11,953 bases of DNA from a virus (Duplodnaviria; Heunggongvirae; Uroviricota; Caudoviricetes). The position numbers were made by a program, and so were the translations under genes. The notes under the pieces were generated by a model, which saw nothing but the letters and a program-made list of their open reading frames with translations, ran no database searches and had not been told where the DNA came from. Numbering within the stretch: the first letter of the stretch is position 1; each line of letters opens with the position of its first letter. Where the stretch lies: positions 1 to 11,953 of IMG/VR virus record IMGVR_UViG_2645727563_000006; one strand, 5' to 3'. Below are positions 1-8,760 of this stretch, piece by piece.

Positions 1-1122
1 CCCCGCCGCTAAAATGTTACGAGCGCCGTTTACATCGGCGTTCGCTGTATATCCACATACCTGGCATCTGAATTTACTTTGTGACAGGCGATTTTCTTTC
101 GCGGTATGACCACAGCACGCGCAACGCTGGCTTGTGTACGCTGGCGGCACTGCCAGTACCTGACCGCCATGCCAGAGCTGCTTATACTCAAGCTGGCGGC
201 GCATTTCATACCAGCCCTGATCCAGTATCGAACGGTTTAAACCTGATTTTGCCCGGACATTGCGACCCGGCTGACTTATCGTACCCGCCGCTGACTTTGA
301 CATGTGTTTAACCTTCAAATCCTCAATGACAATCATTGCGTGGTTTTTGCTGATGATCGTTGTGACTTTATGAAGGTAGTCTCTGCGGATATTTGCGATA
401 CGGGAGTGCAGTTGCTGTATTTTGCGTTTCTGCTTCTGCCAGTTGTTGCTGAATCTGACCTTGCGGCTTAACTGGCGCTGAAGTCTCGCCAGCTTTTTCT
501 GGTTTTTCTGGAAACTGTTTACAGGCTCAAAGACTGTGCCATCTGACAGCGTGGCGAGTTTAGCCACGCCAGCATCCAGTCCGACCATTGATACTGAAGG
601 GTGAACAGGAGTGGATACCTCTCTTTCTGTCTGAATACTGATGTACCACTTACCGCAGGACTGGCTGACAGTGACATTTTTCACAACACCCGTGACCTGA
701 CGGCTATTCCGGTAGCGCATCCAGCCAAGTTTCGGCAGAAAAATACGGCTGTTTTCCTGATCGAGCTTAACGCCCTGCGGGTAGCGGAATGCATCATTCT
801 GTCCCCGCTTTTTGAATCGGGGAAAAGCAGCCCGATTCTGGAAGAAGTTTTTGTAAGCCCGCTCAAGGTCTTTCAGTGACTGTTGCAATGGCTGTGAGGG
901 AGAATCTTTAAGCCATTCGGTTTCAGTGTCTTTTTTCCACTCAACCAACCAGGAAGCCATTTTCGTGTAAGGGATGTATTTTTTACCGGCCTCATGATTC
1001 TCATTCTGAAGCGCCAGAGCACGATTGAAAACGAAACGACATGCGCCTGCGAAGCGCCTCATTTCACGCTCCTGTTGACCATCTGGTCTTAATCGGAATT
1101 TGAATGACACCTGTTGTTTCAT
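1..1122 (-). CDS. tnpB: IS200/IS605-family TnpB (OrfB) RNA-guided-endonuclease-like protein; 3' end runs off the window
   Basis: Open minus-strand frame from ATG at 1122-1120 to position 1 (374 codons; absent from the ORF track because it is edge-truncated). Translation begins [20 protein letters not shown] and contains RuvC-I-like GLDAGV, RuvC-II-like IVIEDL, a CxxC...CxxC zinc finger (CACCGH...CQVCGY) and ADVNGARNI, the arrangement typical of TnpB. No obvious Shine-Dalgarno precedes the ATG. Confidence 0.85.
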
Positions 1123-1169
1123 GTCACTATTTTAAGCAAAAATAGCCGGGAGGAAAACTGTGCCTTATA

Positions 1170-1193
1170 TCCCCACTATGAGGAGCGTGGGGA
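1170..1193 (-). repeat. Subterminal imperfect palindrome (TCCCCAC / 10-nt loop / GTGGGGA), candidate IS left-end hairpin
   Basis: Direct reading: TCCCCAC at 1170-1176 and GTGGGGA at 1187-1193 are exact reverse complements; the position upstream of tnpB fits the ssDNA hairpins of IS200/IS605 ends. Confidence 0.5.
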
Positions 1194-1221
1194 GCGGCAC
1201 ATTGGATAAGGCGTAACAGGG

Positions 1222-4209
1222 ATGAGCTTAAGCGATCAGGTGGTTATGGCCACCAGCATAGAAACGCTGATCGAGCTGCTAAAGAACCTGCCCGATTACG
1301 GGCGGGTTTCGTATGTGGTGACAGCGAAGGGAGACGAGGTAAAAACGGCGTTTGATATCGTCGATGCCTCAGCTCTTTTGGTATCCAATACTCTGGATGG
1401 GAAAATTAATCCAGACTATCCCCAGGAACTTCAGCCGCGCGATCGGACCCGCGCATCCAGCCTTCTTCAGGTTAACCAGATATCCAAGGATTTGCGTCCT
1501 GCCCAGCTTACCGATTCCGGTTTATCCAGCCATGGTGCGCCAATAATTGGTGAGGACAATGCCGTTGAGTCAGGTAATGGGCGGACCATGGGGATCATTA
1601 AAGCCTATCAGGACGGTAATGCGGATCGGTATCGGGAGTACCTGATTGAACATGCGACCGAATTCGGCATACGGCCTGAAAAGGTTGAATCAATGACGGC
1701 TCCGGTACTGGTGCGCCGCCGGTTAACGAAGGTTGACCGTGTTCAGTTTGCCAAGGACTCAAATATTTCTGATCTCCAGGAAATGGCAGCCAGTGAAAAG
1801 GCTTTTGTTGATGCCGACAGCATAACACCGGCGATGATGGCGTTGTTTAACCCGTCAGAAAGTGGAGATCTGCTTAGCCGCAGTAATGACGCGTTTATTC
1901 GCGGATTCATGACGCAAGTTGGTGCCACACAGGCGGCTGGCCTTGTAACTGAAGATGGGCGACCAACACGGCAACTTGTTGACCGTATACAAAACGCGAT
2001 CTTTGCCAAGGCATATAAGGATGCGCGCCTGGTAAGGATGGTTGCAGAAGAACCTGATCCGGATATGCGTAATGTTCTGACGGCGCTTAATGCGGCAGCC
2101 AATGATTTTGTCCAGATGCAGGCTTTATCAGGAGAAGCGCACAAGCAGGCTGTGACAACTATTGTTGATGGCATTGAGACAGCGGATAGCCTCGATAAAA
2201 AGGCGCTGGCGGCATTGAAAGATGCGGTAGACCTGGTAAGGCAATCGAAGGAGTCAGGCCAGCATATTACCGATGTTATTGCTCAGGGGGATATGTTCAG
2301 CGAAACGGCCCCGGAAGTGAAAGCACTCGCGTTGTTCATCGTCGCGAATAACCGTAGCGCGAAGCGTATGGCCACCGCCTTTAAGTTGATGGCGCAACGT
2401 ATCAATGATGAGTTACAGCACCAGGGCCAGGCGCTCGGGGATATGTTTGGCGGCGGCGATGTGTCGTTACAGGATATCCTTCGCCAGGTGTCTCAGGAAC
2501 TGGAATACGAAGGCATGCAAGGGATATCCGGCGGTCTTTTCGAGTCCGTTTCCGGCGGTAGTTACAACGGTGTTGCTCCGTATACCAGTTTGCTATTACA
2601 TCGGGCATCCGGCATCAAAGACATTATTCATCTGATCAGGCTGCTTTCCCGCACAGATCCCCAGGATGAACAGCTTGTACAAGTGCTTGCGCATTTTGTT
2701 CGAATGCCTGTTGCCGACGTGAAAAAATGGTGCCGATTATTCGGTATCAGCAATTCGTTACTTCGCGGCTTGTTAAATCACGCATCCTCCCTTGGGCGCG
2801 ATGGCTTTGACGAGATAGCGCAGGCGATAAAAAACGGAGATATGCCACCAGCTATTGACTGGTTTTCCATTCGCCCAACCAGGGTGAAAGCATTCCTTAG
2901 CGCGGCGCATTTGGCATCACCATTGGCAGAAATGGTTCAGAGGTTGTCGCTCATATTCACAGACCATACCGCGTTGGGTGATCTGACTCTGGACGAGATG
3001 AAAGAAGCCTCCATTCAGTGGGCCGATCAACAAAATGAGGTTAACTCAGACTTCTTGCCAGCATTCAGGAAGGCCGTTAGTAAAGCTGATGATGCCCGTG
3101 GAATTCTGAAGGCATTTAAGGCATTGCAAAGTCAGGTTAATAAACATGTCGGTGATATCGATGGGGTAACGGCGGAAGGCAGGGATATCCTTAAAGAGCA
3201 CGGCATAACGCCAGAGTTTATTGATGAGATCAGGACTGATATGCAGCGTGAGGTCGTATCGTCCCTGCAAATTGTAGCCAGGGCGTTGGCGGATGCTAAT
3301 CCGAAGAGTGCGGCCATTGTTAACCGGGTTATTGGTGATATTGAAGCATCGGAGGGCATGGGGGCGCTGAAACTCTTCCTTTCGCGAGCGTTTAATCCTA
3401 ACGGCAATATTCTCCCTGGCATTATTGGTGAGGCTAAAAAGTATGTCAGTGAAGAAGAACTTGAGCAGCTTGACCAACTACTTAAGCGATTCTCATACAA
3501 CCCGCAGACACGCTGGCAAATGAATCAGCGAAGTATGGGTTCGGTCCACGAGAAAGTGTTATCTGCCATGAACAGTGCGATCGCAAACTCATCCGTATCT
3601 GAAGAAAAAGCTCTTGAGTGGGCCGACTCTTTTATCACGGAAGAAGTGGAAGAAGCCCGCGCTGGACAGAATGGTGGGATAGACCTGCGCAAGGAACTTG
3701 CTGATATTTATCGCCTGACCGGCGGTAAAATTTCGACCTTATCAAAGGTGGTTCACCACAAGGGAAGGGCATATGCAAATCTTAATGGTGTTGTTGCTGT
3801 CAATTTGAACGATGAAAATGCAAGTGCACTGTGGCACGAGCTGGGTCATCATCTTGAGTACAGTAACCCTGGTTTGTTAGAGAAAGCCCGGTCATTCCTG
3901 AAGGCCAATGTTGAAGGGGATAAGCCATCTTTCGTTAATATCGGTGGGCGTGGCAAGCCTGAATGGTGCTTCAGATCTCGATTGAGTAATATTTATATGG
4001 CGAAGGTATACCCGCCAGTCTCAGTGAGTAACTCCGGGAAAATTCGGCAGAAATCACCGACCATTTCCAAAACGTCAGCAACGGAAGTATTCTCTATGGC
4101 TCTTCAGTTGTATCATGACAAAGAGGCCGCTGCCGCATCACTGATGAATGGTGACGGATTGCTGGAACTGTTATTAGGTGTGGCAAAGGAGCTAAATAAT
4201 GCAGATTAA
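1222..4209 (+). CDS. Large 995-aa protein with a C-terminal HExxH (HELGHH) zincin-like metallopeptidase motif; candidate virion-associated polyvalent or anti-restriction (Dar/Ddr-class) protein
   Basis: Single 2988-nt ORF. WHELGHHLEY motif near residue 870. N-terminal QPRDRTRA is weakly reminiscent of ParB-like GxRRxRA, a low-confidence resemblance. ATG at 1222 has a poorly spaced RBS; an in-frame ATG at 1246 preceded by AGGTGG is an alternative start. Size and neighbourhood resemble the P1 darA-operon large protein (DdrB-like), from memory only. Confidence 0.8.
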   Translation: MSLSDQVVMATSIETLIELLKNLPDYGRVSYVVTAKGDEVKTAFDIVDASALLVSNTLDGKINPDYPQELQPRDRTRASSLLQVNQISKDLRPAQLTDSGLSSHGAPIIGEDNAVESGNGRTMGIIKAYQDGNADRYREYLIEHATEFGIRPEKVESMTAPVLVRRRLTKVDRVQFAKDSNISDLQEMAASEKAFVDADSITPAMMALFNPSESGDLLSRSNDAFIRGFMTQVGATQAAGLVTEDGRPTRQLVDRIQNAIFAKAYKDARLVRMVAEEPDPDMRNVLTALNAAANDFVQMQALSGEAHKQAVTTIVDGIETADSLDKKALAALKDAVDLVRQSKESGQHITDVIAQGDMFSETAPEVKALALFIVANNRSAKRMATAFKLMAQRINDELQHQGQALGDMFGGGDVSLQDILRQVSQELEYEGMQGISGGLFESVSGGSYNGVAPYTSLLLHRASGIKDIIHLIRLLSRTDPQDEQLVQVLAHFVRMPVADVKKWCRLFGISNSLLRGLLNHASSLGRDGFDEIAQAIKNGDMPPAIDWFSIRPTRVKAFLSAAHLASPLAEMVQRLSLIFTDHTALGDLTLDEMKEASIQWADQQNEVNSDFLPAFRKAVSKADDARGILKAFKALQSQVNKHVGDIDGVTAEGRDILKEHGITPEFIDEIRTDMQREVVSSLQIVARALADANPKSAAIVNRVIGDIEASEGMGALKLFLSRAFNPNGNILPGIIGEAKKYVSEEELEQLDQLLKRFSYNPQTRWQMNQRSMGSVHEKVLSAMNSAIANSSVSEEKALEWADSFITEEVEEARAGQNGGIDLRKELADIYRLTGGKISTLSKVVHHKGRAYANLNGVVAVNLNDENASALWHELGHHLEYSNPGLLEKARSFLKANVEGDKPSFVNIGGRGKPEWCFRSRLSNIYMAKVYPPVSVSNSGKIRQKSPTISKTSATEVFSMALQLYHDKEAAAASLMNGDGLLELLLGVAKELNNAD

Positions 4210-4507
4210 AATCGCAGCGCCATTAGGCGGAGATGCCATTATCGAATTTGATGATAATGAAGAAGTTTCCGGGCGTTTAAGCATTATCTCCGGTGACATT
4301 ACCGAGGACATGATCGCTGAAGCCATAGCTGGAGCAAATCCCAATAGCTATATGGGATTCGTTAACACCCTTGATGCTCCCGCAAGTGATGTTCTCCGAA
4401 CGCTGCATCTTTACGCTGGCTGGTTTGTTGATTGGCCAGCAGTAGATGGTGGCGATGAGGACGACGACGATGATTTTGGTGATCATGTAGACCAGATCGT
4501 ATATTGA
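4199..4507 (+). CDS. 102-aa highly acidic protein, translationally coupled to the upstream 995-aa gene; function unknown (candidate DNA-mimic, immunity or partner protein)
   Basis: ATG at 4199 overlaps the upstream stop by 11 nt. The product is rich in Asp/Glu with a C-terminal acidic tract DGGDEDDDDDFGD. Followed directly by a strong terminator. Confidence 0.65.
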   Translation: MQIKIAAPLGGDAIIEFDDNEEVSGRLSIISGDITEDMIAEAIAGANPNSYMGFVNTLDAPASDVLRTLHLYAGWFVDWPAVDGGDEDDDDDFGDHVDQIVY

Positions 4508-4510
4508 AGA

Positions 4511-4539
4511 AATCCCGCCAATCGGCGGGATTTTTTTTT
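4511..4539. terminator. Rho-independent terminator between convergent genes
   Basis: 9-bp GC-rich stem AATCCCGCC / loop AATC / GGCGGGATT followed by a run of nine T on the plus strand; an A-run precedes it, so it may also act on the convergent minus-strand gene. Confidence 0.8.
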
Positions 4540-5500
4540 AATCGCTTTCCACTTCTTCCGTAGTGTTTTCTTGCAGTTCTGTTAATGCAGCACGACACAG
4601 GCTCCGGGCATTGGCTATAGCCACACTTTTGACTTCATCCGTCATCGTGCAGGTAATGTACTGATCGAGTTCTTCAGCGCGGATGATGCTTTTGCCAATC
4701 AGAAACTGTATTTGCCAGAGCAGATCAGCATCCATAATCAGAATTTCTGCCGGGCCTTCAGGACCAGCCGGGAAGGAAACATAAGACTGTTTGCCCAGGC
4801 CGATAACTCGACAACTTGCTTCAAGAATTGCGCGATTGAGGTCTGACTTTGTAACTGATACAGGTTGATTTTCACCTGCGATTACGCCGTTGACATGGAT
4901 GTGGAATGGCATGTAGCTTGAAATTCGCTCTACTTTCCATACGCCAGCAAGCGATCCTTCATGCAGCACAATGGGGGTAACCGCGAGTTTCATCTCACCA
5001 TATAACTGCTGGCAGATAGCTGGATTGCTGAATACATCCAAAGGTTCACACTCAAACAGCGGCGCAATCTGTATGAGGTCCATCATGGTCATACCAGGGG
5101 TACGAGCAGTAATGAATCTGCGCATGCCAGTATCCATTGTGCGCCAGATAGCTACACCATGCTTTTTGCTCACTTCTTCAGTAAAGCCAAGGTGGCACAT
5201 GATGGTTTTTTCGATAGCCAGATCAGAGATAGAAACCTTTTCGCCAGGTACACCATCATTATTGATGGTCACTTCGACACTCTGGCCATTACGCAGGCGG
5301 TATTGAATTGTTTTAGTATTTTGTGCTGTCATAGTCTTTTCTCTGCTTAAAAACTGATGTATTGCGCCTTCAGGTGGGTCAGGAATGTTTTCCCACCAGC
5401 GAAAGCAATATCTCGGGGTGTTCTTTTCGTGAAAAGCGCGTGCCATTGCCAACTTTGGCGTTTTTTTGCGAGTTCGTGCTTTTGTCGGCGTCTTGACCAC
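4538..5500 (-). CDS. Hypothetical protein downstream of ssb, 264-320 aa depending on start; no motif recognised
   Basis: Long minus-strand ORF. The ORF-track start at 5500 is GTG with a Lys/Arg/Thr/Pro-rich 56-codon extension; the first ATG is at 5332-5330 (MTAQNTKTIQYRL...) with a weak purine-rich RBS. Start is ambiguous. Confidence 0.6.
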   Translation of the reverse strand: MVKTPTKARTRKKTPKLAMARAFHEKNTPRYCFRWWENIPDPPEGAIHQFLSREKTMTAQNTKTIQYRLRNGQSVEVTINNDGVPGEKVSISDLAIEKTIMCHLGFTEEVSKKHGVAIWRTMDTGMRRFITARTPGMTMMDLIQIAPLFECEPLDVFSNPAICQQLYGEMKLAVTPIVLHEGSLAGVWKVERISSYMPFHIHVNGVIAGENQPVSVTKSDLNRAILEASCRVIGLGKQSYVSFPAGPEGPAEILIMDADLLWQIQFLIGKSIIRAEELDQYITCTMTDEVKSVAIANARSLCRAALTELQENTTEEVESD

Positions 5501-6083: not shown

Positions 6084-6102
6084 AACAAGTGATTTGCATT
6101 AT
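6084..6102 (+). promoter_or_regulatory. Candidate late-type promoter element upstream of lyz: AACAAGTGA box plus CATTAT -10-like hexamer
   Basis: AACAAGTGA at 6084-6092 and CATTAT at 6097-6102, about 90 nt upstream of the lyz ATG; shares its 9-mer with the prt upstream region. Confidence 0.3.
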
Positions 6103-6192
6103 CCTGTGCCTTCTAAAGGGATCGAGTCAGTCGGTATTGGCTGTGAATGGGTGTTTGTCCTGGAGCGTAAAAAATTCGCTTATGAGGTCTTT

Positions 6193-6750
6193 ATGAAGGG
6201 AAAAACAGCCGCAGGAGGCGGTGCAATTTGCGCTATCGCGGTGATGATTACCATCGTGATGGGTAATGGCAATGTGCGAACCAACCAGGCTGGGCTTGAG
6301 CTGATTGGTAACGCTGAAGGTTGCCGACGTGATCCATACATGTGCCCGGCAGGGGTATGGACTGACGGGATCGGTAATACACACGGGGTAACGCCGGGTG
6401 TGCGAAAAACAGACCAGCAAATCGCCGCTGATTGGGAAAAGAATATCCTGATCGCTGAACGCTGTATTAATCAGCACTTCCGGGGCAAAGACATGCCCGA
6501 TAATGCCTTCAGTGCAATGACAAGCGCGGCATTCAATATGGGATGCAATAGCTTACGGACCTACTACAGCAAAGCGCGAGGCATGCGAGTAGAAACGTCC
6601 ATCCACAAGTGGGCGCAGAAAGGGGAATGGGTGAATATGTGTAACCATCTCCCTGATTTCGTGAACAGTAACGGCGTCCCCCTGCCCGGGTTAAAGATTC
6701 GCCGTGAAGAAGAACGCCAGCTTTGCCTGACGGGGCTTGTCAATGAATAA
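6193..6750 (+). CDS. lyz: SAR (signal-arrest-release) endolysin, T4-type lysozyme fold, 185 aa; matches the organisation of P1 Lyz
   Basis: ATG at 6193 preceded by GAGG. N-terminal Gly/Ala-rich weakly hydrophobic segment MKGKTAAGGGAICAIAVMITIVMG (SAR domain) carrying Cys13, then Glu42, Cys44 and Cys51 (NAEGCRRDPYMC) at the positions described for P1 Lyz disulfide-isomerisation control. The ORF-track start at 6094 is an upstream extension. Confidence 0.93.
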   Translation: MKGKTAAGGGAICAIAVMITIVMGNGNVRTNQAGLELIGNAEGCRRDPYMCPAGVWTDGIGNTHGVTPGVRKTDQQIAADWEKNILIAERCINQHFRGKDMPDNAFSAMTSAAFNMGCNSLRTYYSKARGMRVETSIHKWAQKGEWVNMCNHLPDFVNSNGVPLPGLKIRREEERQLCLTGLVNE

Positions 6751-6994: not shown

Positions 6995-7004
6995 TTTAAC
7001 CATT

Positions 7005-7021
7005 ATTGCTCTAATAAATTT
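7005..7021 (+). promoter_or_regulatory. C1-operator-like 17-mer ATTGCTCTAATAAATTT (17/17 to remembered P1 C1 operator consensus), probable Op51-equivalent upstream of c4-icd-ant
   Basis: Exact match to the recalled consensus; paired with an inverted copy immediately downstream. Confidence 0.6.
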
Positions 7022-7037
7022 GATTTATTAGAGCAAA
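7021..7037 (-). promoter_or_regulatory. Second C1-operator-like 17-mer in inverted orientation (TTTGCTCTAATAAATCA, 14/17), forming a near-palindrome with 7005-7021
   Basis: Reverse complement of 7021-7037 read directly; the two sites together form an AT-rich inverted repeat spanning 7005-7037. Confidence 0.5.
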
Positions 7038-7210
7038 TAACCTACCATCGAACACGGCTCTATTGATCTCATCGTCGTTCAGGCTTATAGTTCCACCGTC
7101 GTAGCAAATTCTGCGACCAGGTTTGACAGCCTGAATACGAATGCGGACAACCGCAGATTTCCGATATTGCGGTATTTTTGTGTCCGTAAACCACGTTACG
7201 CCCGAATTAT

Positions 7211-7287
7211 GGTGGGGCGTGATGGGGAGGCTTCGGCCTGCTGGTTTCATTCGTGCCAGTCTGTCAACCCTGTCACGTCCTGCCACC
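7211..7287 (+). ncRNA. c4: c4-like antisense repressor RNA of the immunity-I module (77 nt)
   Basis: 77-nt segment bounded by complementary ends GGTGG (7211-7215) / CCACC (7283-7287) with an internal AGGC-TTCG-GCCT hairpin. It contains CATTCGT (7248-7254) and CTGTCAA (7261-7267), complementary to ACGAATG (7320-7326, abutting the icd RBS) and TTGACAG (7291-7297) downstream, in the order expected for antisense pairing. Length and position match the P1/P7 c4 RNA; exact ends not verifiable here. Confidence 0.5.
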
Positions 7288-7290
7288 TGT

Positions 7291-7329
7291 TTGACAGCGG
7301 GTCGCAGGTTGTTAAACCTACGAATGAGG
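7291..7329 (+). promoter_or_regulatory. Candidate c4 target sites (b'-like TTGACAG and a'-like ACGAATG) in the icd-ant leader, adjoining the icd Shine-Dalgarno
   Basis: Complementarity to the two c4-internal segments read directly; GAGG at 7326-7329 is the icd RBS. Confidence 0.45.
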
Positions 7330-7337
7330 CCGTAACT

Positions 7338-7559
7338 ATGGTTAATGCCAATCCTTGCGCACGCCCTGAATTTATCTGGCGCTTTTACTCCTGCCAGAAA
7401 CGTCACTATCACTTCGTAATTGCACCGACAGAAGATGAGGCCCGCTCTCAGCTTCCTGACGCTCCCTGCATTTTCTCTGCCCGCTTTTCCACTGATTCGC
7501 GCAACTCTCTCAGTTACTGGTGCCTCCCTGTTAACGCTTCTGCTCAGGAGGGACTATGA
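7338..7559 (+). CDS. icd: Icd-like small protein (73 aa), translationally coupled to ant
   Basis: ATG at 7338 with GAGG upstream; stop TGA overlaps the ant ATG (ATGA at 7556-7559). The ORF-track entry 7167-7559 is an N-terminal extension that would overlap the c4 RNA and is probably not translated. Confidence 0.6.
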   Translation: MVNANPCARPEFIWRFYSCQKRHYHFVIAPTEDEARSQLPDAPCIFSARFSTDSRNSLSYWCLPVNASAQEGL

Positions 7560-8647
7560 GAACGTCATTAGTCACCCGTGAAGAAATGATTGAGGCAATT
7601 GAACAGCACACATCCTGTATCAGTACCAGGGATATACCGGGTGTTATTGCCAACTACTTCATGATCACCAAACAACTTTACCGGAGAAAGGACAAGAACG
7701 CGGTTCACCGTATCCTGCTGTCTGATATCCGCGAATACCTGCTCGAACAGGGGCATCTGAATTACGCAACCGTCGCAGCCGAAGCACGCAAGGAGGCACA
7801 CAGAATGAAAGCAACTAACGTTAAATCAGAAAAAATTCATGCACCTTCAGTTCGGGAATCGGAGCTGGTGGTTGTTCAGAATCAGTCTGATGAAATTCCC
7901 GTTCTGGAATGGCTGGGAGTGCGTGTCGTAACGACCGAAACTCTTGCTAGAGGGTATAGTACCGATGAAGCCAATATTCGTAAAAATTTGTCTCGCAACT
8001 CCGATCGCTTTGAAGAAGGCAAGCATTACTATCTCTTAACCGGTTCAAAGTTAAAGGAATTTAAAAGGCTAGTGACTATTAGTCACTTGGTTAGCAAATA
8101 TACAAGTCAGGTAATTCTCTGGACAGAGCGCGGCGCTGCACGCATGTCTAAGATCGTGGACACAAATGAAGCATGGGCATTCTTTGAAAAACTGGAAGAC
8201 AGCTACTTCCGACAAAAAGAACAGCAACCGGTCTCAATTCCCCAGACGCTTCCAGAAGCTCTGCGCCTGGCTGCCGAGTTGGCAGAACAGAAAATGCAAC
8301 TGGAACAACAGCTGGTGGCCGCAGCCCCTAAAGTCGATTTTGCCGACCGGGTATCAGTGGCCAAGGGGATCCTGATTGGGAATTTTGCAAAGGTTGTTGG
8401 ACTTAAGCAAAACGCGCTGTTTGCCTGGTTACGGGAGAACGGCATCCTGATTGCGTCCGGCGGACGTAAAAATGTACCGTTTCAGCAGTACATAAATGCC
8501 GGGTATTTCACGGTGAAAGAAGTGGTGCTGGATGATGAAGATGGATACCAGATACGGTTGACGCCCCAGCTAACGGGGAAAGGCCAGCAGTGGCTGACGC
8601 GTAAACTGCTCGATGCAGGTTTATTAAAGCCTGTAGCGGCTGAGTGA
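7556..8647 (+). CDS. ant: Antirepressor Ant (Ant1, 363 aa) with nested in-frame Ant2 start at 7805 (280 aa)
   Basis: Central region VTTETLARGYSTDEANIRKNLSRNSDRFEEGKHYYLL resembles the antirepressor N-terminal (ORF6N-type) domain and the C-terminal part resembles the KilA-C/Ant C-terminal domain. A strong internal RBS AAGGAGG precedes ATG 7805, consistent with P1 Ant1/Ant2 dual products. Confidence 0.85.
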   Translation: MRTSLVTREEMIEAIEQHTSCISTRDIPGVIANYFMITKQLYRRKDKNAVHRILLSDIREYLLEQGHLNYATVAAEARKEAHRMKATNVKSEKIHAPSVRESELVVVQNQSDEIPVLEWLGVRVVTTETLARGYSTDEANIRKNLSRNSDRFEEGKHYYLLTGSKLKEFKRLVTISHLVSKYTSQVILWTERGAARMSKIVDTNEAWAFFEKLEDSYFRQKEQQPVSIPQTLPEALRLAAELAEQKMQLEQQLVAAAPKVDFADRVSVAKGILIGNFAKVVGLKQNALFAWLRENGILIASGGRKNVPFQQYINAGYFTVKEVVLDDEDGYQIRLTPQLTGKGQQWLTRKLLDAGLLKPVAAE

Positions 8648-8654
8648 TTAAATT

Positions 8655-8677
8655 AAAAAGGCGGCCTTTCGGCCGCC
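8655..8677 (-). terminator. Rho-independent terminator downstream of pro (minus strand); the hairpin may also stop ant transcription
   Basis: GGCGGCC / TTTC / GGCCGCC stem-loop at 8660-8677 preceded on the plus strand by AAAAA (8655-8659), which gives a T-run after the hairpin on the minus strand. Confidence 0.6.
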
Positions 8678-8760
8678 CGTTGAAGCAGGAACCCACCGAA
8701 ATGATTCAGGCGACAGCCTTAACGTAGCAGGAATCCACGCCCGTCAGGGCGTGGAGGGTG

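What the first reader, a model, noticed from the sequence alone, without database searches (positions are those of the whole stretch)
1222..4507. IS-adjacent two-gene cassette: 995-aa HExxH protein coupled to a 102-aa hyper-acidic protein, candidate anti-defence or toxin/immunity pair
The 995-aa ORF carries one clear catalytic-looking motif (WHELGHHLEY, zincin-like) near its C-terminus and no ATPase, polymerase or recombinase signatures I can see. Its stop overlaps by 11 nt the start of a small Asp/Glu-rich protein, and the pair ends in a strong terminator. Large proteins with a metallopeptidase domain in a phage-plasmid backbone are characteristic of virion-packaged polyvalent or Dar-type proteins that are injected to counter host restriction. 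Big enzyme plus small acidic partner is also a common toxin/immunity or enzyme/DNA-mimic layout. It may correspond to the P1 darA-operon large protein, but I cannot confirm that from memory, and the IS sits only about 5 bp upstream, so its native promoter context is disrupted.
Basis: partly seen in the sequence, partly recalled or inferred. Interest (0 to 1): 0.7.

Follow-up and report, generated by a model that had tools for sequence, protein, structure and literature searches.

The report
Phage P1 ddrB–hxr anti-restriction genes
The flagged pair is the already-known ddrB and hxr genes at the end of phage P1's anti-restriction (darA) operon, so it is ordinary; the one new point is that the small acidic Hxr protein, long labelled a "repressor", looks instead like a conserved partner of DdrB's metallopeptidase half.

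Summary
ORFs 1222-4209 (995 aa) and 4199-4507 (102 aa) overlap by 11 nt and end at a strong hairpin terminator.

The upstream element is not IS1. It is a TnpB-only IS200/IS605-type element inserted exactly at the ddrA stop codon, 15 bp before ddrB. About 14% of P1-like plasmids carry it there. ddrB remains under purifying selection.

The added value concerns Hxr:
- It has no helix-turn-helix and a pI of 4.05.
- Its predicted fold is α/β with a disordered acidic tail.
- It always follows, and is translationally coupled to, a DdrB-type peptidase module, even in phages about 40% identical and in proteins lacking the ParB half.

Hxr is most likely a dedicated partner of that module. Which kind of partner is untested.

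The parts
1..1206 (-). Left (tnpB-proximal) part of a TnpB/InsQ-only IS200/IS605-type insertion sequence. The tnpB CDS occupies 1..1122 on the minus strand, and its last ~29 codons lie outside the window. A subterminal hairpin, CCCCAC-N10-GTGGGG, lies at 1171-1192.
   Evidence: 100% identical over 1-1230 to plasmid NZ_LR890336, where insQ/TnpB (402 aa) is annotated. The boundary was mapped by comparison with the uninterrupted P1 junction.
1207..1221 (+). Native P1 sequence TAAGGCGTAACAGGG: the former ddrA stop codon plus the 12-nt ddrA-ddrB spacer, retained as the ddrB leader.
   Evidence: Alignment of P1, L003 and the window at the junctions.
1222..4209 (+). ddrB, 995 aa, orthologue of P1 DdrB (P1_gp022), a virion-internal Dar protein.
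   Evidence: 98.0-99.4% nt identity to P1-family phages. P1 annotation. phrog_2299 matched end to end. 16 aa differences from P1, dN/dS 0.12.
1327..1722 (+). DdrB-ParB domain (aa 36-167). It lies within the slowly evolving N-terminal module, aa 1-450 (nt 1222-2571).
   Evidence: Pfam PF18763, E = 1.8e-39. Identity profile along DdrB.
2572..4206 (+). Fast-diverging C-terminal module of DdrB (aa 451-995). It co-varies with hxr.
   Evidence: Identity to L012/L013 drops from 84-98% to 12-67% at about aa 450. Hxr there is 45% identical, while the flanking genes are 70-83%.
3679..4131 (+). Zincin (gluzincin-type) metallopeptidase core, about aa 820-970. HELGHH lies at nt 3835-3852 and the predicted third zinc ligand E955 at nt 4084-4086.
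4186..4191 (+). AAGGAG Shine-Dalgarno for hxr, formed by the conserved Lys-Glu codons of the DdrB C-terminus (…AKELNNAD*), 7 nt before the hxr ATG.
   Evidence: The same K-E-L / AAGGAG / overlap arrangement is seen in L006, L008, L010, L011, L012 and L013, despite about 40% protein identity.
4199..4507 (+). hxr, 102 aa (P1_gp021). It has an acidic α/β core (aa 1-80) and a disordered poly-acidic tail (aa 83-102, nt 4445-4504).
   Evidence: P1 annotation. pI 4.05. AF2 model. dN/dS 0.12-0.30. Intact in 75 of 75 P1-type viral loci that hold it fully.
4506..4537 (.). Intrinsic terminator hairpin (14-bp stem, AAUC loop, U-run) shared by the convergent hxr and isaA-like genes.
   Evidence: RNA fold: dG -21 kcal/mol, z = -4.82.

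Best explanation
The cassette is the distal end of the phage P1 darA (defence against restriction) operon in a P1-like phage-plasmid: ddrB followed by hxr.

Shown:
- DdrB is the orthologue of the P1 virion-internal protein DdrB.
- It is built from a conserved N-terminal half carrying a DdrB-ParB domain and a fast-evolving C-terminal half ending in a zincin metallopeptidase (HExxH plus a downstream Glu).
- Hxr is not an Xre-type repressor. It is a small, very acidic α/β protein with a disordered poly-Asp/Glu tail.
- Its gene is translationally coupled to the end of ddrB: the Shine-Dalgarno lies inside the last DdrB codons and the stop and start overlap.
- Hxr co-diverges with the peptidase half of DdrB.
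- Hxr-type or Hxr-like partners accompany DdrB-type peptidase modules across distant phages, including proteins that lack the ParB half.

Inferred:
- Hxr is made in fixed proportion with DdrB and binds its C-terminal peptidase module in the producing cell.
- It most likely holds the peptidase in check or in an assembly-competent state until DdrB is processed (reported to a 76-kDa form) and loaded into the procapsid behind DarA/Hdf/DdrA.
- It may or may not travel into the virion itself.

The upstream TnpB-only IS is a common insertion polymorphism at the ddrA stop codon. It has not inactivated the pair.
For: Identity:
- 98-99.4% nt identity to 19 P1/P7-family phages; P1 annotation as ddrB and hxr.
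- The full operon lydA-lydB-hdf-darA-ddrA lies beyond the IS in a plasmid that is 100% identical across the IS and junction (window 1-1230).

Domains:
- PF18763, E = 1.8e-39.
- Invariant H872/E873/H876/H877/E955.

Literature:
- DdrB gave 39 unique peptides in P1 virions (PMC9024508).
- It is one of six Dar proteins (PMC12707154, PMC12810830).
- ParB plus MPTase architecture and processing to 76 kDa (PMC5512222).

Hxr is not a helix-turn-helix protein:
- No Pfam hit for 8 family members at E <= 10.
- No PDB hit by sequence or by profile.
- The model is β-β-β-α-α-β plus a disordered tail.
- pI 4.05.

Linkage:
- All 11 viral loci found through distant Hxr relatives have a full or partial DdrB homologue immediately upstream, mostly with the same 11-nt overlap. 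The same holds for L017.
- The AAGGAG/K-E-L junction is conserved.
- Co-divergence of DdrB aa 451-995 with Hxr.
- In the converse search through the peptidase domain, 12 of 16 independent hosts (386-1710 aa) have an overlapping 86-127-aa ORF with net charge <= -7, against 6 of 67 other long ORFs (p = 2.5e-7).
- Hosts without the ParB domain keep the partner.
- hhalign links Hxr to partner groups G2b, G2 and G1 with scores 22-39, against <= 15.4 for reversed controls.

Selection: ddrB dN/dS is 0.05-0.12, including 0.046 between two IS-bearing plasmids; hxr is 0.12-0.30.
Against: - No physical interaction was tested. No complex model could be run because structure jobs were limited to single window sequences.
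- The Hxr model is only moderately confident (pLDDT 67, 7-sequence alignment).
- Co-divergence could simply reflect one recombination block rather than co-adaptation.
- Hxr was not among the 27 proteins detected in P1 virions (PMC9024508). This is weak evidence either way, because Hxr has only three tryptic sites and would probably fail a two-peptide cut-off.
- Two partner groups (G3, G4) show no detectable homology to Hxr.
- 4 of the 16 peptidase hosts miss the strict size-and-charge criterion: L100 and L104 are followed by 401- and 322-aa ORFs, and L105 and L113 by small acidic ORFs of net charge -5 and -6.
- The primary Dar paper (Piya 2017) and the P1 genome paper were not readable here, so an existing statement about hxr could have been missed.
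- ddrB and hxr are dispensable for plaque formation on a non-restricting host (PMC10695390), so any role is conditional.
Confidence: 0.55

Rival explanations
1. Hxr is an independent anti-restriction effector: a DNA-mimic protein of the Ocr/ArdA kind that titrates type I restriction enzymes or other DNA-binding defences. It would be encoded at the end of the dar operon for co-expression only.
For: Net charge about -20 over 102 aa, with acidity conserved in all relatives. It sits in an anti-restriction operon. A tandem two-domain version exists (L017), and known mimics often act as dimers (own knowledge).
Against: No sequence or fold similarity to any solved protein, including solved DNA mimics. 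About half of the excess negative charge sits in a disordered tail rather than on a rigid surface. A late-expressed, non-injected mimic could not protect incoming DNA, and Dar is reported to act only in cis on the packaged DNA (PMC12707154). The tight coupling to the peptidase module, even in proteins of very different architecture, is not explained.
Confidence: 0.2
2. Toxin/immunity pair: DdrB, through its ParB-like nuclease or its zincin, is toxic to the producing cell, and Hxr is its immunity protein.
For: The layout is a large enzyme followed by an overlapping small acidic protein. The partner tracks the enzyme module. This overlaps with the 'inhibitor' version of the best explanation.
Against: There is no evidence of toxicity. 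The gene order, enzyme first and partner second under a late lytic promoter, fits a morphogenetic operon. DdrB is a virion cargo protein (PMC9024508). No PADLOC model matches. The partner accompanies hosts without the ParB nuclease domain.
Confidence: 0.08
3. The legacy annotation is right: Hxr is an Xre-like transcriptional repressor.
Against: No HTH family matches any of 8 family members at E <= 10. There are no PDB hits. The predicted fold is β-rich rather than a five-helix bundle. A pI of 4.05 with only 3 basic residues is incompatible with DNA binding.
Confidence: 0.02
4. In this particular element the cassette is functionally silenced. The 1.3-kb antisense IS cuts ddrB-hxr off from the late promoter LPdar, so the genes are relics.
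For: The IS lies between ddrA and ddrB. Only weak sigma-70-like sites face ddrB, for example 1104-1133 with 9 of 12 matches. A weak terminator-like hairpin exists on the + strand inside the IS, at L003 12488-12503, which is window 488-503.
Against: ddrB and hxr are intact. dN/dS between two IS-bearing plasmids that differ at 44 nt is 0.046. The insertion is present in 64 complete E. coli genomes and 11 of 72 viral loci, always with an intact ddrB 5' end. The insertion neatly preserves the ddrA reading frame and the ddrB leader.
Confidence: 0.1

Closest known systems
Phage P1 ddrB (P1_gp022) and hxr (P1_gp021), the distal genes of the darA operon
   Same: Same genes: 98.0% nt identity to NC_005856 and 99.4% to MH422554. 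Same lengths (995 and 102 aa), same 11-nt overlap and same terminator.
   Different: A TnpB-only IS lies between ddrA and ddrB, whereas P1 has a 12-nt spacer. The window lacks the isaB-IS1 segment that follows hxr in reference P1.
Phage-type 'polyvalent proteins' with zincin MPTase domains (Iyer, Burroughs, Anand, de Souza and Aravind 2017, PMC5512222), for example N4 virion RNAP
   Same: A large virion-delivered multidomain protein with a DdrB-ParB domain and a C-terminal HExxH zincin. The fold was confirmed here.
   Different: That paper did not, in the passages I read, describe a conserved small acidic partner gene. Pfam's polyvalent-protein models do not detect this MPTase at sequence level: no peptidase family appears at E <= 10, only a weak LPD5 match.
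DarA-DdrA pair of the same operon
   Same: A large Dar protein followed by an overlapping small acidic protein. DdrA is a proven virion component (PMC9024508).
   Different: DdrA is not homologous to Hxr (hhalign scores at control level). It is predicted helical by sequence character, and its acidity is not conserved in distant phages (pI up to 5.07).
Bicistronic metalloprotease plus cognate small inhibitor operons, such as serralysin-Inh and protealysin-emfourin (own knowledge, not tested here)
   Same: A zincin gene immediately followed by a gene for a roughly 10-kDa protein, co-expressed with it.
   Different: No sequence or structural similarity of Hxr to any solved inhibitor. Those inhibitors are periplasmic or secreted and not poly-acidic. 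Inhibition by Hxr is untested.
DNA-mimic anti-restriction proteins such as Ocr and ArdA (own knowledge)
   Same: Small, strongly acidic, phage- or plasmid-encoded, in an anti-restriction context.
   Different: No homology or fold match. Late-operon position. Much of the charge is in a disordered tail.

Membership tests
P1 DdrB orthologue | Collinear full-length similarity to P1 DdrB | tested here: met
   995 of 995 codons align, with 16 aa differences from P1. phrog_2299 matches 1-995 of 995.
P1 DdrB orthologue | Position downstream of lydA-lydB-hdf-darA-ddrA and upstream of hxr | tested here: met
   hxr follows in the window. The upstream operon is seen beyond the IS in L003, which is 100% identical across the IS and junction, and in L004. 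The window itself starts inside the IS.
P1 DdrB orthologue | Packaged in the virion head and dependent on DarA/Hdf | not testable with these tools
   Known for P1 from the literature only (PMC9024508, PMC12810830).
DdrB-ParB domain (PF18763) | Match above the Pfam gathering score | tested here: met
   135.1 bits against a cut-off of 27.6, aa 36-167.
Zincin / gluzincin metallopeptidase (polyvalent-protein MPTase) | HExxH on a helix plus a downstream Glu on a second helix, both conserved | tested here: met
   H872, E873, H876 and E955 are invariant in A2 and in seven DdrB homologues. The helices lie at fragment residues 169-182 and 257-266.
Zincin / gluzincin metallopeptidase (polyvalent-protein MPTase) | Zincin fold: helix, three-stranded sheet, then the active-site helices | tested here: met
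Zincin / gluzincin metallopeptidase (polyvalent-protein MPTase) | Match to a curated peptidase profile (Pfam or NCBIfam) | tested here: not met
   No peptidase family at E <= 10 in Pfam or E <= 1 in NCBIfam. No PDB hit by sequence profile.
Zincin / gluzincin metallopeptidase (polyvalent-protein MPTase) | Zinc-dependent (auto)proteolytic activity | not testable with these tools
   Predicted by PMC5512222; never shown, to my knowledge.
Xre / HTH_3 repressors (legacy label of Hxr) | Helix-turn-helix domain detectable by profile or by fold | tested here: not met
Xre / HTH_3 repressors (legacy label of Hxr) | Basic or neutral DNA-binding surface | tested here: not met
   pI 4.05, with 23 D/E against 3 K/R.
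DNA-mimic anti-restriction proteins (Ocr, ArdA and similar) | High density of surface carboxylates | tested here: met
   Net charge about -20 over 102 aa, conserved in relatives.
DNA-mimic anti-restriction proteins (Ocr, ArdA and similar) | Homology or fold similarity to a known mimic | tested here: not met
DNA-mimic anti-restriction proteins (Ocr, ArdA and similar) | Binds and inhibits a restriction enzyme | not testable with these tools
   Needs biochemistry.
Toxin-immunity or protease-inhibitor gene pair | Conserved adjacency and translational coupling of the enzyme gene and the small partner gene | tested here: met
   (12 of 16 against 6 of 67, p = 2.5e-7).
Toxin-immunity or protease-inhibitor gene pair | Physical binding, with neutralisation or inhibition | not testable with these tools
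   No multimer prediction was available. Needs an experiment.
IS200/IS605 family, TnpB-only element | TnpB/InsQ ORF with a subterminal hairpin, no terminal inverted repeats, and no tnpA | tested here: met
   The RefSeq annotation is 'RNA-guided endonuclease InsQ/TnpB' (402 aa), with no other ORF in the ~1336-bp insert. Hairpin at 1171-1192. I did not analyse the right end or ωRNA, which lie outside the window.

The most novel reading that the evidence does not exclude
Hxr founds an unrecognised family of small poly-acidic proteins that are obligatory, translationally coupled partners of DdrB-type zincin modules across P1-like and more distant phages. This would make Hxr a seventh Dar-system component. 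It would control when the peptidase processes DdrB (or other cargo), or escort that module into the capsid. The 'repressor' label propagated through hundreds of phage-plasmid annotations would then be wrong.
Probability: 0.45. Interest if true: 0.5.

Novelty: already known. Interest (0 to 1): 0.3.

Why it matters
The cassette is textbook P1 biology, so finding it again changes nothing. The modest value is threefold.

1. The widely copied annotation 'putative repressor Hxr' is almost certainly wrong.
2. The Dar anti-restriction system, whose mechanism is still unresolved, probably has an overlooked component genetically tied to DdrB's peptidase module. This gives a concrete and cheap experiment: a Δhxr mutant, with DdrB processing and packaging as the read-out.
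3. P1-like phage-plasmids are clinically relevant carriers of resistance genes. About one in seven carries a TnpB element precisely at the ddrA stop codon, which may affect Dar expression or reflect RNA-guided homing.

Tried and rejected
- **Hxr against profile libraries and the PDB.** I scanned Pfam, NCBIfam, PADLOC and PHROGs. Only PHROG 2292, of unknown function, matched. PDB sequence and profile searches found nothing.
- **Locus searches with Hxr alignments.** The search for related loci failed with the broad alignment A3 because it had no conserved stretch. With A4 in genome contigs, none of 15 pattern matches was confirmed.
- **The 60%-identical Hxr relative P0010.** It lies in IS-scrambled DNA without ddrB and is uninformative.
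- **First search through the peptidase domain.** It returned only near-identical P1 loci. I repeated it with the distant member placed first.
- **DdrA as an Hxr paralogue.** Rejected: hhalign scores were at control level.
- **L112 upstream ORF.** I asked whether it is a split-off ParB half of DdrB. It is not; it is DarA, and those phages simply lack the ParB half.
- **iddB, the antisense ORF inside ddrB.** The open frame is not conserved in diverged homologues, so it is probably not a gene.
- **Primary papers.** Lobocka 2004 and Piya 2017 are not held in the library.
Full report
**Observation.** The window holds the two ORFs exactly as described: 1222-4209 (995 aa) and 4199-4507 (102 aa), overlapping by 11 nt. 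The large protein has a single HExxH, HELGH at aa 872. The small one has 23 Asp/Glu against 3 Lys/Arg (pI 4.05) and ends in DGGDEDDDDDFGDHVDQIVY. A 14-bp hairpin with a U-run at 4506-4537 (dG -21 kcal/mol, z = -4.8) separates the convergent stops of this gene and the next one. Composition is unremarkable.

**Identity.** The 3.3-kb cassette is 98.0-99.4% identical to 19 P1/P7-family phage records. In reference P1 (NC_005856) the two ORFs are ddrB (P1_gp022, 'possible metallopeptidase') and hxr (P1_gp021, 'possible repressor; homolog of Xre'). They are the last genes of the late operon lydA-lydB-hdf-darA-ddrA-ddrB-hxr, driven by LPdar. The rest of the window is also P1-like: an isaA-like gene, ssb, lyz, an Ant gene, pro and prt.

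**What is known about DdrB.**
- It is one of six virion-internal 'defence against restriction' proteins (PMC12707154, PMC12810830).
- It gave 39 unique peptides in the P1 virion proteome and is described there as aiding DarB addition to the capsid (PMC9024508).
- Iyer et al. 2017 (PMC5512222) dissected it as a DdrB-ParB domain plus a C-terminal zincin MPTase. They reported that it is processed to about 76 kDa and predicted autoproteolysis.
- ddrB and hxr are non-essential for plaque formation (PMC10695390).

**The upstream element.** Positions 1-1206 are not IS1. They are the tnpB-proximal part of a ~1336-bp TnpB/InsQ-only IS200/IS605-type element on the minus strand.
- Comparison with the uninterrupted P1 junction shows that it sits exactly between the last sense codon of ddrA and its TAA.
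- The IS end supplies a new in-frame TGA, and ddrB keeps its native 15-nt leader TAAGGCGTAACAGGG.
- In plasmids carrying the insertion the whole upstream operon is intact.
- The insertion is a common polymorphism. Among complete E. coli genomes, 64 have the IS-ddrB junction and 388 have the P1-type junction. Among P1-type viral contigs the numbers are 11 and 61.
- ddrB remains under strong purifying selection: dN/dS is 0.046 between two IS-bearing plasmids and 0.06-0.12 for the window against others.
- I found no strong promoter facing ddrB. Expression presumably depends on read-through from LPdar, which is untested.

**The peptidase claim.**
- Pfam detects the N-terminal DdrB-ParB domain (aa 36-167, E = 1.8e-39) but no peptidase family, even at E <= 10. 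NCBIfam and PDB sequence searches are also silent.
- Relatives of aa 700-995, down to 27% identity, keep LWHE-GHH-E and a downstream TEV-SM glutamate. H872, E873, H876, H877 and E955 are invariant in all DdrB homologues examined.
- An AlphaFold2 model of aa 700-995 has a mean pLDDT of 69 and 81-93 in the core. It shows the expected order: helix, short β-strands, HExxH helix, Glu helix.

**Hxr is not a repressor.**
- None of eight family members matches any Pfam HTH family at E <= 10.
- There is no PDB match by sequence or by profile.
- The AF2 model (pLDDT 67) is β-β-β-α-α-β over aa 1-80, followed by a disordered acidic tail.
- A protein with pI 4.05 and three basic residues cannot plausibly bind DNA.
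- The searchable literature contains nothing on Hxr beyond the inherited label.

**Hxr is tied to DdrB's peptidase half.**
- A word-indexed search found only P1-type Hxr. An exhaustive HMMER search of 1.84 billion representatives found 19 hits, including about 97-aa relatives with the same plan.
- These led to 11 viral contigs. In every one the Hxr relative (41-46% identical) directly follows a DdrB homologue (42-60% identical), usually with the identical 11-nt overlap, inside a syntenic dar operon.
- A tandem two-domain Hxr (184 aa) also follows a 997-aa DdrB.
- The junction is conserved in detail. DdrB ends K-E-L-x4-5-stop, and the Lys-Glu codons AAGGAG are the hxr Shine-Dalgarno.
- Along DdrB, aa 1-450 are 84-98% identical between the window and L012/L013, but aa 451-995 fall to 12-67%. 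Hxr there is 45% identical, while the flanking genes are 70-83%. 'DdrB-C plus Hxr' thus behaves as one co-diverging cassette.
- Searching in the other direction, through the peptidase domain with a distant member ranked first, 12 of 16 independent host proteins (386-1710 aa) are followed by an overlapping (-1 to -17 nt) ORF of 86-127 aa with net charge <= -7. Only 6 of 67 other long ORFs in the same loci are (Fisher p = 2.5e-7).
- Several hosts lack the ParB domain. In L112/L114 a P1-like dar operon carries an MPTase-only 'DdrB' plus the partner.
- hhalign links Hxr to three partner groups with scores of 22-39, against at most 15.4 for reversed controls. Two further groups share only position, size and charge.
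- Four of the six background hits are the DarA-DdrA pair, but DdrA is not homologous to Hxr.
- hxr is under purifying selection, with dN/dS 0.12-0.30, and is intact in 75 of 75 P1-type loci that hold it fully.

**Mechanism.** What is shown: the identity of both genes, the domain content, the coupling, the co-divergence and the conservation of the pair. What is inferred: Hxr is co-produced with DdrB and binds its peptidase-containing C-terminal module in the producing cell. I favour a chaperone, inhibitor or assembly-adaptor role that controls DdrB processing or loading. My confidence in the partner role is about 0.55, and the specific sub-mechanism is open.

Absence of Hxr from the virion proteome is weak evidence. 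Its three tryptic sites give one ordinary 22-residue peptide, a 4-residue peptide, and two very long acidic ones (41 and 35 residues), so it would probably miss a two-peptide cut-off.

**Rivals.**
- An independent DNA mimic (0.2).
- Silencing of the cassette by the IS (0.1).
- A toxin/immunity pair (0.08).
- An Xre-like repressor (0.02).

**Verdict.** It is a rediscovery of P1 ddrB-hxr, so novelty is 'already known' and interest is low (0.3). The residual interest lies in re-reading Hxr as a conserved partner of DdrB-type metallopeptidase modules, and in the recurrent TnpB insertion at the ddrA stop codon.

Noticed in passing
window 1-1206 (also L003 11871-13206): A TnpB-only IS200/IS605-type element is inserted exactly between the last ddrA codon and its stop, and donates a new TGA. 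The same junction occurs in 64 of about 452 complete E. coli genomes with ddrB and in 11 of 72 viral loci. Recurrence at one site would fit RNA-guided TnpB homing against the empty site. That idea rests on my own knowledge and is untested; the right end and ωRNA lie outside the window.
   Followed up: partly
window 1743-2174 (-): This antisense ORF inside ddrB corresponds to the annotated P1 gene iddB. Its open frame is broken or shifted in the diverged ddrB homologues L010, L011 and L013, so it is probably not a real gene.
   Followed up: partly
window 4508-5500: Reference P1 has isaB and IS1 between hxr and isaA. Here hxr is followed directly by the isaA-like gene (4538-5500, minus strand). 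PHROG 2326 covers only aa 59-319 of the 320-aa ORF, so the true start is probably near codon 56.
   Followed up: no
window ~7000-8750: Relative to P1 there is a ~1.7-kb insert between lydD and pro. It carries an anti-repressor gene (ORF6N + KilAC, 7556-8647, + strand) and an unknown 133-aa ORF (7011-7412, - strand). Some other P1-like plasmids share it.
   Followed up: no
L010 57-2323; L011 848-3867; L012 1628-3990; L119 105-1684: DarA and DdrA form a second 'large protein plus overlapping small acidic protein' pair in the same operon. DdrA is not homologous to Hxr, and its acidity is not conserved in distant phages.
   Followed up: yes
L112 2915-4938; L114 3026-4938: Some P1-like phages (contigs of ~90-97 kb) have a DdrB equivalent of only 527-564 aa that lacks the ParB half but keeps the peptidase module and an Hxr-like partner. 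DdrB's two halves are therefore separable modules.
   Followed up: partly
L017 6001-6555: An Hxr variant with two tandem Hxr domains (184 aa) follows a 997-aa DdrB in an otherwise P1-like operon. An OmpD-like porin gene is inserted downstream.
   Followed up: no
window 6094-6750: The mechanical lyz ORF starts at a TTG (218 aa), but P1 Lyz is 185 aa. The real start is probably the internal ATG (MKGKTAAGGG…), which gives the signal-anchor-release type N-terminus.
   Followed up: no
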